Source: a virus (taxonomy: Duplodnaviria; Heunggongvirae; Uroviricota; Caudoviricetes). Taken from it: a stretch of 23,494 nt of DNA. Below, one piece after another: positions 6,126-23,494 of the stretch. Below the pieces are notes generated by a model. It worked only from the letters and a program-made list of their open reading frames with translations, was not told the DNA's origin and ran no database searches. Position 1 is the stretch's first letter. Every line of letters starts with the position of its first letter. The translations under genes were made by a program, and so were the position numbers. The stretch spans positions 1 through 23,494 of IMG/VR virus record IMGVR_UViG_3300025597_000613; one strand, written 5' to 3'.

Positions 6126-7274
6126 TTAGGCCTGCACATCTACACCGCGACGTGCAGCCTCAGCCTTCTTCTTCTCCAGCAGGCGCTTGAACTTGGCCTC
6201 CTTGGTGAGACAGGTAGCCTCGGCCATCTCGAGCCAGTGCTTGGGATCTGCCTTCACGAAGTCAGCAATCTTCTTCGCCTGACGCAGCGACAGTTCGCGC
6301 AGGTACTCCTGGTTGTCGATGATGAAGTTCTGGATCATCTTCTCCTCGCCATTCTCGAAGGCATAGTTGTTGAACATGCCATCGGAAATGACCTGCTTGA
6401 TGCGCAGGATCTTATCGCGAGTGGAAGTGATCTCCAGATCCAGGTAGTGACAGCGAGACATGATGGCTTCGAGGTGCGCACTGATACGCGAACCACGTGC
6501 AATCGTGCGTTCGAAGTCGATGTTGGACAGGAACATGATGCCACCTTCGAAGTCGAATTGGCTGTCAATGTCCATGCCTTGCAGCACCTTGGACTCCTTG
6601 TTCCAGCAGATGCGGCGCTTGTCACCGGAGTTGAGCGCACCCTTCAGCAGGGAGAGCGACTCCTCCTCGAACAGCACACCGTCACAGTCATCGAACACCA
6701 GCACCTGGCCGGGATGACGATTGTAGTACAGTTTCTGGTAGAGGCCCAGCGAAGAGACGCCGCCCGTCACGATTTCGTATTTGGGATTTTGACCCTTCAT
6801 CGTGAGGAACATATTGGCAGCCTCGAGCTGCTTTTCGACGCCGAACGACTTACCGATGCCCGGGGGACCCGACACCACCAAGCCGCGCACGACACCTCGC
6901 GCAACAGCATCAGCGATGCGGTCGAGCATCAGGAACGTCTCGCGAATGCGCTCCATTGCCTCGTCTTCGGTCTCGGTCTCCATGAAGAGACGCTCGTAGT
7001 CCGTGGAATCGGTTGCGCTGTCATCAAGCTTTTCTTGACCAGGAACCACGACGTGGGCGGGAAGATCGGCGCCGGTAGCATCCACCAGCTTGAAGTGATC
7101 TTTCTCGACCTGGATGCGCTGCACCGGCGGAGTACCAGGGTCCGGATTCGGATTGCGAATGGTAACGTAGCCACCACGCGCACCTTCGACGTAGCCCTTG
7201 ATCAGATGGAAAGTGCCACTGATCTCTTTGCCACGATAATGACCCTTGGTGATTTGAACTTGGATTGCGCTCAA
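6126..7274 (-). CDS. phage AAA+ family ATPase (TTG start at 7274)
   Basis: Walker A VSGPPGIGKS, Walker B LVFDDCD, sensor-1 FLSN, SRC Arg-finger; AAGGAG SD 7 nt before TTG; upstream ATGs fall inside the promoter. Confidence 0.9.
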   Translation of the reverse strand: MSAIQVQITKGHYRGKEISGTFHLIKGYVEGARGGYVTIRNPNPDPGTPPVQRIQVEKDHFKLVDATGADLPAHVVVPGQEKLDDSATDSTDYERLFMETETEDEAMERIRETFLMLDRIADAVARGVVRGLVVSGPPGIGKSFGVEKQLEAANMFLTMKGQNPKYEIVTGGVSSLGLYQKLYYNRHPGQVLVFDDCDGVLFEEESLSLLKGALNSGDKRRICWNKESKVLQGMDIDSQFDFEGGIMFLSNIDFERTIARGSRISAHLEAIMSRCHYLDLEITSTRDKILRIKQVISDGMFNNYAFENGEEKMIQNFIIDNQEYLRELSLRQAKKIADFVKADPKHWLEMAEATCLTKEAKFKRLLEKKKAEAARRGVDVQA

Positions 7275-7305
7275 ACGAGACTCCTTTGTTGTGTGTTGAG
7301 CCATT

Positions 7306-7334
7306 AGTATAGCGAACTTGACCAAGTTGGTCAA
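7306..7334 (-). promoter_or_regulatory. sigma70-type promoter TTGACC-17-TATACT with palindrome CTTGACCA-N3-TGGTCAAG
   Basis: Sequence. Confidence 0.85.
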
Positions 7335-13244: not shown

Positions 13245-13622
13245 TTAATCGCCATTGTCTTCTGGCCCTTGTATGCCGGACAATACCTGCTGGTATTTTG
13301 GGATGGCCGCGGTGTTGAGTCTATCCATGAGGAAGATTGGGTGGCCTAGACGTTGATTATTGAGTTGTTCGATAAGTGGCGGCGCACCAGTTGAATTACT
13401 AAGCACTGGTGAAGGTACCGGCAAGCAGGGTTTGAGCTCTTTTTTCCAGGATGGAACTTTGTGATCACCGGTGGCACTGTTCCAGAAGGCATACCATTCT
13501 TCAACTGATACCTTCATAGTCTTATCGTCCAGCTCACTAGCAAACATATCTAGCTCTTGTAACATTTGCCAATAATGATCCCTCATGCGCTCAATATAGC
13601 GCATATCCGAAAGTTTATTCAT
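13245..13622 (-). CDS. hypothetical protein (start MNKLSD)
   Basis: Start reassigned to ATG 13622 overlapping the upstream stop. Confidence 0.7.
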   Translation of the reverse strand: MNKLSDMRYIERMRDHYWQMLQELDMFASELDDKTMKVSVEEWYAFWNSATGDHKVPSWKKELKPCLPVPSPVLSNSTGAPPLIEQLNNQRLGHPIFLMDRLNTAAIPKYQQVLSGIQGPEDNGD

Positions 13623-14127
13623 TACCGAGCCCCTTGAAAGAACGAGTGAATGCAAGATGTGCAACACCCACCATATCCATAGATTTTACCGGAGGAACAA
13701 ATTGTGCCACCGCAGTCCATTTATCATCTAGTTTGTATTTGTATTCCAGCGCACCGATAAAGCTAATTTTTCTACCGTCATGGATCATGGAATATCCTGT
13801 ACCGGCACCAGCCACAACACCAAAGCTATCAGTGATCATCCATTCCTTGGCCAAATAGAAAGTGGGGCGATTATAGGAGTTATGGTATCCACCTACTTCC
13901 CAACCATTGTTGAACTTATACCCTAGTCCGAAATTATTGTTGTTATAGGATTGCATAGTGACATCAACCTTGGTGTAATTCAAGGAAGGGTCGTCATACA
14001 CATAAAGGGTTCGTGTACGGTGCTCGTGTTCCGATTTACTATGAATCGAGAAGGTGTGAAATACCAACTCATCGGCGTGTGCAACAGAAGCAACCGACAA
14101 CAGAAGCGCAGGAATAATGTATCGCAT
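13615..14127 (-). CDS. exported beta-barrel protein, PagP-like (lipid A acyltransferase fold)
   Basis: Signal peptide; SIH...YNNNNFGLG...GYHNSY parallels PagP WH...YNERPWGGG...KDSW; alternating beta-strand pattern. Confidence 0.6.
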   Translation of the reverse strand: MRYIIPALLLSVASVAHADELVFHTFSIHSKSEHEHRTRTLYVYDDPSLNYTKVDVTMQSYNNNNFGLGYKFNNGWEVGGYHNSYNRPTFYLAKEWMITDSFGVVAGAGTGYSMIHDGRKISFIGALEYKYKLDDKWTAVAQFVPPVKSMDMVGVAHLAFTRSFKGLGNE

Positions 14128-19161: not shown

Positions 19162-19190
19162 ATTTTATGTTGAGTAAGTTTGGTTGTCAA
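19162..19190 (-). promoter_or_regulatory. sigma70-type promoter TTGACA-17-TAAAAT
   Basis: Sequence. Confidence 0.85.
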
Positions 19191-20419
19191 TAGGCGTAAC
19201 GACGCGCAGTGAGATAATTCTTTCTCATCCAATGATTGACTGCATGCATTTCTTCGGGTCGTGCCTGCCGGTTAGCGAAACCGCGAATTTGTATCACTTC
19301 GCCGTTCTCGTTGATTTCGAGAGTGAGCGCACGTTCAAAAGCAATCGATTTCTTCGGTTGATGCCTCTTCACGCTCCAGATGCTGGATTTGCCACTAACG
19401 CATTTTTCTTGATAGCTATAGACACAGTGGTGCATAGCCGTCCCCTCAGCCGCCAGATCCTTGCTGGTCTTGATCTGAGTGAAAGACCATTTGTTTCCAG
19501 GCATGCCATCGAGCTCGAACTCATCATCCGCAATAGGAATGCCCTCCCACCTGGCATCGCCCATCCTTTTCACGCGGGCGAGTTCGTAGTGCCAATCTTG
19601 CATTTGGCGACGCAGAGATTGGAGGTTACGGCCCCTCAGGCTATAATGCGTCTGTTGGATACGTGCCCGATTATCGCAGTGAATGAAATAGTCGATAAGG
19701 TCATTCATCTCCTGCAGAGGGATTTCGTTGCTGCAGAAGAATTGAATAACTTCTCTCCAGATGTTACGTTCCAGCCAGGTAATGCCGGGGAAATCTCGAA
19801 GCTTAGACTTCATCACGCGAGTGCGAATTCCCAGGTCCTGGGTATGATTGGTGGCAATGGCGAAGATGATCGCCTCCCTGAAATCGGCATCTACGGGGCA
19901 GTTCAGGAAAGTGTGAGTTTCTTGTTTAGAAAGAATGCCTTTGGTGTGCTCTTTGTACAGGGAACCACCAGAAGCGGCAGTGATAAACCATTGCCGGCGA
20001 AGACGAATTTCTTCGGCAGACACACGAACAATATCTTGTCGCGCCTGGCGCCGCTCCCACCAATGTTGTCGTAGATTGGTATTACTGACAATTTCTTGTT
20101 CCAGATACCAGCATTCCTGCAGGTAGGAAGGAACCTTGTACTTACCGAAGAGATGCGTGGCAACTGCCAGCGTAATTTTTCCACGATCCTTCGTTCGAAG
20201 GGAACGATTGAAGGTGCTAATCTCACGGATACGACGATCGCCATAGTCCAGGATAAGCTTCTGTGCAATGTTCTCGAGGGAATTTTTCATATCTTCTTCC
20301 AGCTTCTTAGCTTCATGGCTTCGGATGGAAGAAGACAGCATCGCCTTGGTTCGTGCCTCAATGGCCTCCTGTTCACGGAGACGTTCTTTAAGACCACCTT
20401 GATGTTTTTGTTTTGCCAT
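19187..20419 (-). CDS. PcfJ-domain protein, probably leaderless
   Basis: C-terminal QIKTSKDLAAEGTAMHHCVYSY...SIWSV...TLEI...IQIRGFAN typical of PcfJ-like domains. Confidence 0.85.
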   Translation of the reverse strand: MAKQKHQGGLKERLREQEAIEARTKAMLSSSIRSHEAKKLEEDMKNSLENIAQKLILDYGDRRIREISTFNRSLRTKDRGKITLAVATHLFGKYKVPSYLQECWYLEQEIVSNTNLRQHWWERRQARQDIVRVSAEEIRLRRQWFITAASGGSLYKEHTKGILSKQETHTFLNCPVDADFREAIIFAIATNHTQDLGIRTRVMKSKLRDFPGITWLERNIWREVIQFFCSNEIPLQEMNDLIDYFIHCDNRARIQQTHYSLRGRNLQSLRRQMQDWHYELARVKRMGDARWEGIPIADDEFELDGMPGNKWSFTQIKTSKDLAAEGTAMHHCVYSYQEKCVSGKSSIWSVKRHQPKKSIAFERALTLEINENGEVIQIRGFANRQARPEEMHAVNHWMRKNYLTARRYAY

Positions 20420-22631: not shown

Positions 22632-22726
22632 GTTGACTTTCTGTTGATGTGGGCCTTCCACCCACTTGTGACCCTTAAAAAATTCAACATTTGTTGAATA
22701 TTGCCGTTGTCCTACCAGCAAGTTCT

Positions 22727-23019
22727 TGGTGCCCGAAGCGGGACTCGAACCCGCATGTCTTTCGACGGGGGATTTTCTTACCACTATGACTTTCATCACC
22801 ATTTCTGTTTGTGGTCTGGACTATATCTTCACCTTTGCTTGTGCTTTAGGTGTTTGGGTATCTAGTCTCTACGGCGCTCTGGAGTTAACCAGTTCCCTCG
22901 GTGTTGCCATCAGCATTATCTGTTAAGGTTTCACCGATATCCCCAAATCCACTTTATAAGTTTCCCTATAAAGGCTCAGTTTTCAAAGTCCCCTGTGTAT
23001 ACCATTTCACCATCCGGGC
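22727..23019 (-). tRNA. trnL: tRNA-Leu(UAA), intron-containing (exons 23019-22986 and 22776-22727), CCA encoded
   Basis: Spliced product: acceptor GCCCGGA/UUCGGGC, D-arm GUG/CAC, anticodon arm GGGGA-CUUAAAA-UCCCC, long variable arm, T-loop UUCGAGU; 84 nt. Confidence 0.92.
22777..22985 (-). mobile_element. group I self-splicing intron (209 nt, no ORF) inserted after U34 of tRNA-Leu(UAA)
   Basis: P1 CUU/GAG with U-G at the splice site; P2 with GAAA loop; P4 UCGGUG/CACCGA; R GUAGAGACUA; S AAGAUAUAGUCC; P9 GAAA; terminal G. Confidence 0.92.
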
Positions 23020-23494
23020 GTTAATTTTTTCTGCAATTTTACAGCTCTTTCGTAATTACCACCTTTTGCTGCTAATCCTACGCTCTGCAATGCTTGCCTT
23101 ATATTACTATGAGATTGCAGTGCAGTCAAAAGTTCCTCGTCAGACACTTTCTTTTTTCCGGGATTTTTATTTCTACCCCTGAATGTATCTGTCTGAGAGT
23201 GGCAATTAGGGCATAACCATCTTAAATTTTCTTTTCTATTATCAGTTCTTTTACCATTTATGTGATCGAGTTCGAGAACCAGGTGTTTATTTTTCCAACC
23301 AATGATTCCGCAATCTTCGTCACTACATTTATATTCTAATATATTAAAATGATGAATATATTTTCTTAGGAATTCGCTACCCCAATGGGTATTTTCTTTA
23401 AAAATTTCCTCTTCAGTGTATGTAGTTGCCCCCTTATGAGATATTCTATCTTTTATCTCATCTGGTAATGAATGGTAATCATATCCTCTATGTG
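23007..23494 (-). CDS. HNH homing endonuclease, 5'-truncated by window edge
   Basis: LELDHINGKRTDNRKENLRWLCPNCHSQTDTFRGRN followed by VSDEELLTAL...VGLAAKGGNY helical domain; stop TGA at 23009-23007 inside the tRNA gene. Confidence 0.9.
   Translation of the reverse strand, partial: HRGYDYHSLPDEIKDRISHKGATTYTEEEIFKENTHWGSEFLRKYIHHFNILEYKCSDEDCGIIGWKNKHLVLELDHINGKRTDNRKENLRWLCPNCHSQTDTFRGRNKNPGKKKVSDEELLTALQSHSNIRQALQSVGLAAKGGNYERAVKLQKKLTPGW

What the first reader, a model, noticed from the sequence alone, without database searches (positions are those of the whole stretch)
22727..23019. Phage tRNA-Leu(UAA) interrupted by a compact group I intron at the cyanobacterial/plastid trnL site
The 209-nt intron lies between U34 and A35, with the same CUU...GAGCCUU P1/P2 start as the cyanobacterial and chloroplast trnL(UAA) intron. 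It is close in size to the small Azoarcus tRNA-Ile intron. tRNA introns in phages of non-cyanobacterial hosts are rarely described. Splicing would gate supply of the UUA-reading tRNA and hide the anticodon loop in DNA and precursor RNA from nucleases (inference). Standard annotation would miss or mis-call this gene.
Basis: partly seen in the sequence, partly recalled or inferred. Interest (0 to 1): 0.8.

Follow-up and report, generated by a model that had tools for sequence, protein, structure and literature searches.

The report
Self-splicing intron in phage leucine tRNA
A giant uncultured phage carries a leucine-tRNA gene split in its anticodon by a small group I (self-splicing type) intron, with a selfish DNA-cutting enzyme gene butted against it; the mechanism is well known, but this setting in a phage tRNA gene is common in public data and I found no paper describing it.

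Summary
On the minus strand the 5' exon is 23019-22986, a 209-nt intron is 22985-22777, and the 3' exon with encoded CCA is 22776-22727. Joining the exons gives a normal long-arm tRNA-Leu(UAA).

The intron matches Rfam Intron_gpI over its full length (46.9 bits, E 1e-10). That is just under the gathering score, so default Rfam and ARAGORN both miss it. Covariation across 41 relatives supports P1-P9, the U.G pair at the 5' splice site and the terminal G.

This is the classical Leu.3Ug type. It is not rare: 109 of 120 IMG/VR contigs sharing its core motif carry it inside a tRNA gene (102 of the 113 mapped, the window and three GenBank phages included, are Leu(UAA)). Cultured Agrobacterium phage Atu_ph07 also carries one, unannotated.

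Homologues sit inside or beside 39 of 109 intron-bearing phage loci, against 1 of 120 intronless ones.

The best reading is a selfish self-splicing intron partnered with a homing endonuclease. I found no support for a regulatory gate or a nuclease shield.

This scan has reported the same class before on other DNA. It is a new member of a known kind.

The parts
22986..23019 (-). tRNA-Leu(UAA) 5' exon, 34 nt: acceptor 5' strand, D arm, anticodon stem 5' strand, C32 U33 U34
   Evidence: In-silico splicing and the ARAGORN call. Exon bases CUU pair with GAG of the intron to form P1.
22777..22985 (-). Group I intron, 209 nt, no ORF. P1 22988-22984/22979-22975; P2 22973-22965/22960-22952 (GAAA loop); P3 22947-22942/22858-22853; P4 22937-22932/22903-22898; P7 22869,22867-22863/22823-22818; P8 22852-22848/22834-22830; P9 22814-22811/22784-22781; P9b 22799-22795/22790-22786 (GAAA loop); terminal G at 22777.
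   Evidence: Rfam RF00028 at 46.9 bits, E 1e-10, full length. Helix map. Covariation on 41 relatives. The minimum-energy fold recovers the tRNA arms and P2, P3, P4, P5, P6, P8 and P9.
22727..22776 (-). tRNA-Leu(UAA) 3' exon, 50 nt: A35 A36 A37 A38, anticodon stem 3' strand, 13-nt variable arm, T arm, acceptor 3' strand, A73, encoded CCA
23007..23494 (-). 3' part of a free-standing HNH endonuclease gene. The whole gene is genome 23609-23007, 200 aa. Its last four codons and the TGA stop lie in tRNA positions 1-13.
   Evidence: ORF. PHROG HNH families at 1e-30. Pfam HNH_3 and HNH fall just under their cut-offs. The zinc cysteines and the H...N...H motif are invariant in 8 homologues. The same overlap with the tRNA occurs in 7 IMG/VR loci.
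22677..22699 (-). Weak terminator-like element just after the tRNA: an A+T-rich 7-bp hairpin followed by a run of T
   Evidence: Read directly from the sequence. It was not reported by the consensus scan, which requires 3 G-C pairs. This is inference only.
23101..23129 (-). Sigma-70-like promoter match (TTGACT, 17 nt, TAATAT) inside the HNH gene, about 80 nt upstream of the tRNA
   Evidence: The number of such matches in the region is no higher than in shuffles, so this is only a candidate.

Best explanation

Inferred mechanism, from the established group I pathway: the precursor folds so that exon bases C32-U33-U34 pair with GAG of the intron (P1, with a U.G wobble at the cut). A free guanosine bound in P7 attacks after U34. 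The terminal G (22777) then takes the same pocket, and the exons are joined to give the loop CUUAAAA. RNase P and 3' trimming finish the tRNA, which reads UUA and UUG.

The intron is best seen as a selfish passenger that costs the phage little, not as a regulator.

Its spread and retention are probably tied to the abutting free-standing HNH endonuclease, which is a relative of the HNH enzymes encoded inside longer trnL introns. That enzyme would cut intron-free trnL alleles in co-infecting relatives. Repair would copy the nuclease gene, the tRNA and the intron together, and the intron would protect its own copy by splitting the target. This is collaborative homing.

Because the HNH reading frame ends inside the tRNA, RNase P cleavage would remove its stop codon and so keep nuclease levels low.

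Shown here: the anatomy, the fold covariation, the homology and the statistical linkage. Inferred: splicing itself, the HNH target, mobility and the RNase P effect.

My odds: real intron-split tRNA-Leu 0.95; self-splicing 0.8; HNH partnership 0.5.
For: - Exact exon and intron borders, and a canonical spliced tRNA-Leu.
- A full-length Rfam group I match at E 1e-10.
- On 41 relatives, 85% of pair cells are paired, against 32-43% when partners are slid. There are 373 double-sided changes against 119 in shuffles. The U.G pair at the splice site holds in 41 of 41, and P7 is invariant.
- No core helix of the window's copy is broken.
- It aligns with genuine cyanobacterial trnL introns and with bacterial Leu introns at this site.
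- The HNH motif is intact and conserved.
- Full-length HNH homologues overlap the 5' end of intron-bearing trnL genes in L009, L100, L080, L036, L010, L069 and L089.
- An HNH homologue lies inside the intron or within 1 kb in 39 of 109 intron-bearing phage loci, against 1 of 120 intronless loci of the same tRNA family. Fisher p is 9e-14.
- The 688-756-nt trnL introns encode homologous HNH proteins.
- Intron-free alleles of this tRNA family are abundant in IMG/VR, as expected for a mobile intron.
- There is precedent for tRNA maturation cutting off a homing-nuclease stop codon: T4 segB (PMC2330249).
Against: - There are no RNA data.
- The Rfam score is under the gathering cut-off.
- The window's intron belongs to a small divergent clade whose nearest relatives (L155, L002, L022) have no HNH nearby. 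The loci that share its HNH-tRNA module carry the majority type of intron. So intron and nuclease have not always travelled together.
- A homologous HNH sits 6 nt upstream of an intronless tRNA-Leu(UAA) in the T4-like Shigella phage CM8. This nuclease family can therefore persist without any intron and may target something other than the intron site.
Confidence: 0.8

Rival explanations
1. Adaptive reading: the intron is kept because splicing gates the supply of the UUA-reading tRNA, or because it hides the anticodon loop from host anticodon nucleases.
For: This is the only tRNA-Leu found in the 212-kb record. That would suggest tRNA damage matters to this phage.
Against: UUA makes up 15% of Leu codons (12 per 1000), with no sign of special demand. 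Anticodon nucleases act on mature tRNA, and the spliced product has an ordinary CUUAAAA loop. Intron-free alleles of the same tRNA family are at least as common in phages. The tight linkage to HNH genes is the signature of a selfish element.
Confidence: 0.1
2. The HNH endonuclease is an independent free-standing homing gene of the SegB/F-Tfl kind. It targets the tRNA region and has no functional tie to the intron, which merely hitch-hikes in the co-converted flank.
For: A homologue lies upstream of an intronless tRNA-Leu(UAA) in the T4-like phage CM8, and upstream of another tRNA in LR756508. GenBank records label relatives 'F-TflIV', one of the T5 homing endonucleases, whose ORFs lie in the T5 tRNA gene cluster. 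The window's intron type differs from the type found in the loci with the most similar HNH-tRNA modules.
Against: The presence of HNH is strongly skewed towards intron-bearing loci, 39 of 109 against 1 of 120. Homologous HNH genes also sit inside trnL introns.
Confidence: 0.3
3. The intron is a decayed ribozyme or depends on proteins, so the gene is a tRNA pseudogene or needs a protein factor to splice.
For: The Rfam score is 3 bits under the gathering cut-off. The clade sits on a long branch.
Against: Every core helix is intact. The window keeps all 59 invariant columns of the 41-sequence alignment. The U.G pair, the terminal G, J8/7 and P7 are canonical. The exons are undamaged.
Confidence: 0.07

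Closest known systems
[quoted passage not shown]
   Same: The same insertion point, CUU/...g/AAAA. The same P1 (CUU with GAG). The same start GAGCCUU, P2 with GAAA loop, AAGUG. The same conserved core. Shown by alignment with Brasilonema, Leptolyngbya and Pelatocladus introns and with 51 bacterial Leu introns at this site.
   Different: It lies in a phage genome. It is shorter (209 nt against 272-330 nt in the cyanobacterial examples) because P6 and P9 lack extensions. Its P7 and J8/7 follow the GUAGAGACUAGA...AAGAUAUAGUCCAG type seen in phages, Proteobacteria and Acidobacteria, not the cyanobacterial type. It belongs to a small divergent clade.
Azoarcus tRNA-Ile(CAU) group I intron (IC3, about 205 nt; from my own knowledge)
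   Same: Compact size. GAAA tetraloops on P2 and P9. A minimal periphery. It sits in a tRNA anticodon loop.
   Different: A different tRNA and a different loop position (Ile2.5Ug in Williams 2020). I made no direct sequence comparison here.
[quoted passage not shown]
   Same: An ORF-less intron with a free-standing homing-type nuclease gene directly beside the interrupted gene, and strong statistical linkage between the two.
   Different: The host gene is a tRNA, not a protein gene. The nuclease frame overlaps the tRNA 5' end. Neither the target site nor the immunity of the intron-bearing allele has been tested.
T4 SegB and the T5 F-TflI/II/IV free-standing endonucleases in phage tRNA clusters (PMC2330249)
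   Same: A homing-type nuclease gene embedded among tRNA genes. In T4 the stop codon of segB is removed during tRNA maturation, which is analogous to the overlap here. GenBank labels homologues of the window's HNH 'F-TflIV'.
   Different: SegB is a GIY-YIG enzyme. No intron is involved in T4 or T5.

Membership tests
Group I intron (Rfam RF00028) | Match to the covariance model of sequence and core structure | tested here: inconclusive
   Full-length match at 46.9 bits, E 1.1e-10, but the gathering score is 50.
Group I intron (Rfam RF00028) | U at -1 forming a U.G wobble in P1, and a terminal G before the 3' splice site | tested here: met
   U34 (22986) pairs with G of GAG. The terminal G is at 22777. 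The U.G pair holds in 41 of 41 relatives.
Group I intron (Rfam RF00028) | Core helices P3-P8, including the P3/P7 pseudoknot, supported by covariation | tested here: met
   85% of cells are paired, against 32-43% when partners are slid. 36 of 59 pairs show double-sided changes. P7 is invariant.
Group I intron (Rfam RF00028) | Guanosine-dependent self-splicing | not testable with these tools
   This needs in-vitro transcription or RNA reads.
tRNA-Leu(UAA) 'Leu.3Ug' IC3 introns | Insertion between anticodon positions 34 and 35 of tRNA-Leu(UAA) | tested here: met
tRNA-Leu(UAA) 'Leu.3Ug' IC3 introns | Sequence homology to established members | tested here: met
   Alignments A2 and A3. On the tree it falls among tRNA introns, in a divergent clade of 4.
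tRNA-Leu(UAA) 'Leu.3Ug' IC3 introns | The peripheral architecture of subgroup IC3 | tested here: inconclusive
   P2 and P9 carry GAAA loops and no extra domains are seen. No subgroup-specific model was available. The IC3 label rests on Williams 2020 citing the intron database.
Bacterial-type tRNA-Leu | Cloverleaf with a long variable arm, A73 discriminator and UAA anticodon | tested here: met
   ARAGORN drawing of the spliced product. Charging by LeuRS cannot be tested.
HNH (His-Me finger) homing endonuclease | The beta-beta-alpha-metal motif with catalytic His/Asn and zinc cysteines | tested here: met
   PHROG HNH families at 1e-30. Pfam HNH_3 scores 21.7 against a cut-off of 24.8. C95, C100, H116, N128, C133, C136 and H137 are invariant in 8 homologues.
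Collaborative homing pair | A free-standing nuclease gene next to an ORF-less intron, linked across genomes | tested here: met
Collaborative homing pair | The nuclease cuts the intron-free allele at or near the intron insertion site, and the intron-bearing allele is immune | not testable with these tools
   This needs purified protein and cleavage mapping.

The most novel reading that the evidence does not exclude
The HNH gene and the ORF-less intron form a collaborative-homing pair acting on a tRNA gene. The block of two small ORFs, HNH and intron-bearing tRNA-Leu entered this phage by replacing a resident tRNA-Leu gene. It left that gene's first 17 nt stranded 1.2 kb upstream. The nuclease is held in check because RNase P maturation of the tRNA removes its stop codon.
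Probability: 0.35. Interest if true: 0.55.

Novelty: new member of a known kind. Interest (0 to 1): 0.45.

Why it matters
A 2014 review of bacterial group I introns stated that all phage introns then known lay in protein-coding genes, even though phages carry many tRNA genes (PMC3984707). This locus and its more than 100 relatives in public viral contigs show that this is no longer so. Phage tRNA-Leu(UAA) genes often carry classical anticodon-loop introns.

Default tRNA and Rfam annotation miss them, so phage tRNA inventories and codon-supply analyses undercount. In the cultured jumbo phage Atu_ph07, a 'hypothetical protein' is annotated partly over the unrecognised gene.

The recurrent pairing with one HNH family, found inside the intron, upstream of it or downstream of it, gives a natural series for studying how introns and homing nucleases come together.

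This particular instance adds one more member and a tidy example of a nuclease frame overlapping a tRNA. It does not reveal a new mechanism.

Tried and rejected
- **Near-identical relatives:** megablast of the whole window against GenBank phages found nothing.
- **Close relatives of this intron:** exact-motif scans of IMG/VR found only the LR745208 twin.
- **Intron origin or host clue from the nearest intron:** the nearest relative, L155 in a Bdellovibrionota MAG, lies on an ordinary chromosomal contig. Only 8 of 301 genomes of that phylum match. So no origin or host could be inferred. The polymerase is closest to phages of rhizobia and enterobacteria at about 40% identity, which is only a loose hint.
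- **Recombinant intron:** I considered that the window's intron joins a 3' half of the majority type to a foreign 5' half. The alignment shows differences throughout, so I dropped this.
- **A broken HNH gene behind the 17-nt stub:** I looked for one upstream. A stop lies 4 codons upstream in that frame.
- **tRNA 5' stubs in the relatives:** none were found in the loci with an upstream HNH.
- **Further group I introns in the record:** none were found.
- **Subgroup classification by cmsearch:** no subgroup models were available.
- **Literature:** seven searches for a described group I intron in a phage tRNA found none.

Full report
**What is there.**
On the minus strand of the window, ARAGORN with default settings finds no tRNA. 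Rfam at gathering threshold finds nothing. With permissive settings, Rfam's Intron_gpI model matches 22795-22995(-) over its whole length (positions 1-253) at 46.9 bits and E 1.1e-10, three bits under the gathering score.

Reading the flanks gives a 34-nt 5' exon (23019-22986), a 209-nt intron (22985-22777) and a 50-nt 3' exon (22776-22727) that ends in an encoded CCA. Removing the intron gives an 84-nt RNA that ARAGORN calls tRNA-Leu(UAA). It has a 7-bp acceptor stem, G18G19, the anticodon loop CUUAAAA, a 13-nt variable arm, a normal T arm and A73. With introns allowed, ARAGORN miscalls the locus as tRNA-Gln(UUG) with a 210-nt intron at position 39.

**The genome.**
The window is the first 23.5 kb of a 211,620-bp linear IMG/VR virus record, estimated to be about 55% complete. 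It is 42% G+C and holds 11 further tRNA genes near both ends. It encodes a family B DNA polymerase, a tail sheath, RIIA, a ribonucleotide reductase and a Lon-like protease.

The polymerase is closest, at about 42% identity, to the jumbo phages Sinorhizobium phage Phosso and Agrobacterium phage Atu_ph07, and then to 350-380-kb coliphages. This is a jumbo myovirus. A proteobacterial host is only a loose inference.

**The fold.**
I mapped P1 to P9b on the window's sequence. P1 is exon CUU paired with intron GAG, with U34.G at the cut. P2 is a 9-bp helix capped by GAAA. P3, P4, P5/P5a, P6/P6a, P7 (the P3/P7 pseudoknot) and P8 form the core. P9 closes two small hairpins, both capped by GAAA. The intron ends in G. 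The minimum-energy fold of the whole precursor recovers the four tRNA arms and nearly all of these helices.

On an alignment of 41 non-redundant relatives inserted at the same site:
- 85% of pair cells are standard pairs, against 32-43% when partners are slid by 1-3 columns.
- 373 cells carry changes on both sides, against 119 in shuffles.
- The U.G pair is present in 41 of 41.
- P7 is invariant, while P2, P3, P8 and P9b covary heavily.

Nothing in the window's copy is broken.

**Relatives.**
A blastn search of GenBank phages found weak matches in huge phages. ARAGORN with introns allowed showed that three of these lie in tRNA genes:
- tRNA-Leu(UAA) in the 735-kb LR756501.
- tRNA-Leu(UAA) in cultured Atu_ph07, with a 278-nt intron. 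It is unannotated, and a 'hypothetical protein' CDS overlaps part of it.
- tRNA-Ile(UAU) in the 485-kb LR745208, also split between positions 34 and 35.

Of these, 109 lie inside an intron-split tRNA. Adding the window and the three GenBank phages gives 113 mapped cases, and 102 of them resolve to tRNA-Leu(UAA) split at site 3 with U at -1 and a terminal G. Intron lengths cluster at 191-218 nt, with a second group at 688-756 nt.

It gave 51 Leu(UAA) introns at site 3 (mostly Pseudomonadota and Acidobacteriota), 34 Met(CAU) at site 2 and 17 Arg(CCU) at site 5. These are the classical types catalogued by Williams 2020.

Genuine cyanobacterial trnL introns, fetched from four genomes, align with the window's intron and share its start AACUGAGCCUU, P2, AAGUG. 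They are 60-120 nt longer in P6 and P9.

On a tree of 83 introns, the window's copy falls in a small, well-separated clade (SH-aLRT 99). Its companions are a chromosomal tRNA-Leu intron of a Bdellovibrionota MAG (77% identity), the LR745208 tRNA-Ile(UAU) intron, and an IMG/VR intron in a UCA-anticodon tRNA. One intron lineage thus sits after CUU in tRNAs of different identity.

Directly upstream lies a 200-aa ORF (genome 23609-23007, minus strand). It has an N-terminal cysteine cluster, an HNH core and a C-terminal ...IRQAL..VGL..KGGNY... module. It matches PHROG HNH families at 1e-30. Its zinc and catalytic residues are invariant among homologues. Its last four codons and its TGA stop are tRNA positions 1-13.

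Full-length homologues (41-50% identity) end at tRNA positions 18-21 of intron-bearing tRNA-Leu genes in seven IMG/VR loci. The exons of several of these are also the closest to the window's. Other loci carry a homologue just downstream. The 688-756-nt introns encode homologous HNH proteins with the two modules in the opposite order.

Counting gives a clear contrast:
- 39 of 109 intron-bearing phage loci have a homologue inside the intron or within 1 kb. Only one has a homologue farther away.
- Only 1 of 120 intronless loci of the same tRNA-Leu family has one within about 1 kb.
- Fisher p is 9e-14.

This is the pattern expected of a homing endonuclease tied to the intron.

Two facts temper it. 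The window's nearest intron relatives have no such gene nearby. And the T4-like Shigella phage CM8 has a homologue 6 nt upstream of an intronless tRNA-Leu(UAA). Some GenBank records of related phages label theirs 'F-TflIV', after one of the T5 homing endonucleases, whose ORFs lie in the T5 tRNA gene cluster.

**A stub.**
At 1,205 nt upstream of the tRNA (genome 24224-24208, outside the window) lies a 17-nt copy of the tRNA's 5' end, with 16 of 17 bases identical. The number of such matches expected by chance is 0.01. Between the stub and the tRNA lie two small ORFs and the HNH gene.

This fits the entry of a nuclease-plus-tRNA block into a resident tRNA-Leu gene, as earlier notes of this scan proposed for other genomes. 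It is a single observation, and the relatives lack it.

**How it most likely works.**
The intron most likely self-splices by the standard two-step guanosine pathway. Functionally it is a near-neutral selfish element.

The HNH enzyme probably drives the inheritance of the whole block by cutting intron-free alleles in co-infecting relatives, while the intron protects its own copy. This is collaborative homing as described for phage protein genes (PMC3984707).

Because the nuclease frame ends inside the tRNA, RNase P cleavage would strip its stop codon. This is the same negative control proposed for T4 segB (PMC2330249).

All of these steps are inferred.

Gating of UUA decoding and shielding from nucleases find no support. 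UUA is an ordinary codon here. The mature tRNA is ordinary. Intron-free alleles abound.

**Novelty.**
The kind is well known. The setting is not in the papers I could search:
- The 2014 review says that all phage introns then known lay in protein genes.
- Devoto 2019 says that introns in phage tRNAs had not been reported, and the ones it describes are not group I.
- Williams 2020 surveyed only bacterial and archaeal assemblies.

Yet the element is common in public viral data, and this scan has already reported the same class, including the pairing with HNH, on other DNA. I therefore rate it a new member of a known kind, of moderate interest.

Noticed in passing
L263:1209-1225 (genome 24208-24224, minus strand; 714 nt beyond the window's end): A 17-nt copy (16 of 17 identical) of the tRNA-Leu 5' end lies 1,205 nt upstream of the real tRNA, at the start of a 93-aa ORF (phrog_9722). 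The number expected by chance is 0.01. It may be the stranded 5' stub of a resident tRNA-Leu that was replaced by an incoming block of two small ORFs, the HNH gene and the intron-bearing tRNA.
   Followed up: partly
L004:1245-1606 (MF403008.1 complement 112890-113251, Agrobacterium phage Atu_ph07): This cultured jumbo phage has an unannotated tRNA-Leu(UAA) split by a 278-nt group I intron. The 'hypothetical protein' CDS AUZ94936.1 is annotated over part of it. It is a ready experimental stand-in.
   Followed up: partly
L002:1427-1713 (LR745208.1) and L022:725-1004: The same intron lineage as the window's sits between positions 34 and 35 of a tRNA-Ile(UAU) and of a UCA-anticodon (opal-reading or Trp-like) tRNA, in each case after CUU.
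   Followed up: partly
IMG/VR loci such as L015, L026, L039, L050, L094, L120-L122: About 20 of the 102 intron-split 'tRNA-Leu(UAA)' genes give spliced products of only 73-78 nt with no long variable arm. Their amino-acid identity is therefore unclear.
   Followed up: no
Bacterial loci with 630-740-nt tRNA introns (for example L132, L143, L153, L176, L177, L187): In bacterial genomes the HNH-like coding sequence inside long trnL introns is on the strand opposite to the tRNA in 11 of 12 cases. In phages it is co-directional in 12 of 13.
   Followed up: no
L392:1483-2184 (Shigella phage CM8, MK962750.1): A homologue of the window's HNH lies 6 nt upstream of an intronless tRNA-Leu(UAA) in a T4-like tRNA cluster that also holds a SegB-like gene. 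Related records label the HNH 'F-TflIV'.
   Followed up: partly
genome 203368-203461 and 205448-205530 (outside the window): ARAGORN draws a 94-nt tRNA-Ile(UAU) with a long extra arm and an 83-nt tRNA-Thr(UGU) with an oversized variable region. Both are unusual for these isotypes.
   Followed up: no
L005:1501-1556 (crAss-like phage cr111_1, MT774387.1): The same P7/J8/7 core motif occurs in an unannotated gap between a GIY-YIG intron endonuclease gene and the replicative helicase gene. It is probably a group I intron of a protein gene. ARAGORN found no tRNA there.
   Followed up: no
window 19187-20419(-), 6126-7334(-), 13615-14127(-): Other ORFs in the window: a 410-aa PcfJ-like protein, a 402-aa phrog_1250 protein with a weak AAA_16 match, and a 170-aa protein matching a PagP-like PHROG. 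The rest are mostly small minus-strand ORFs with no family match.
   Followed up: no
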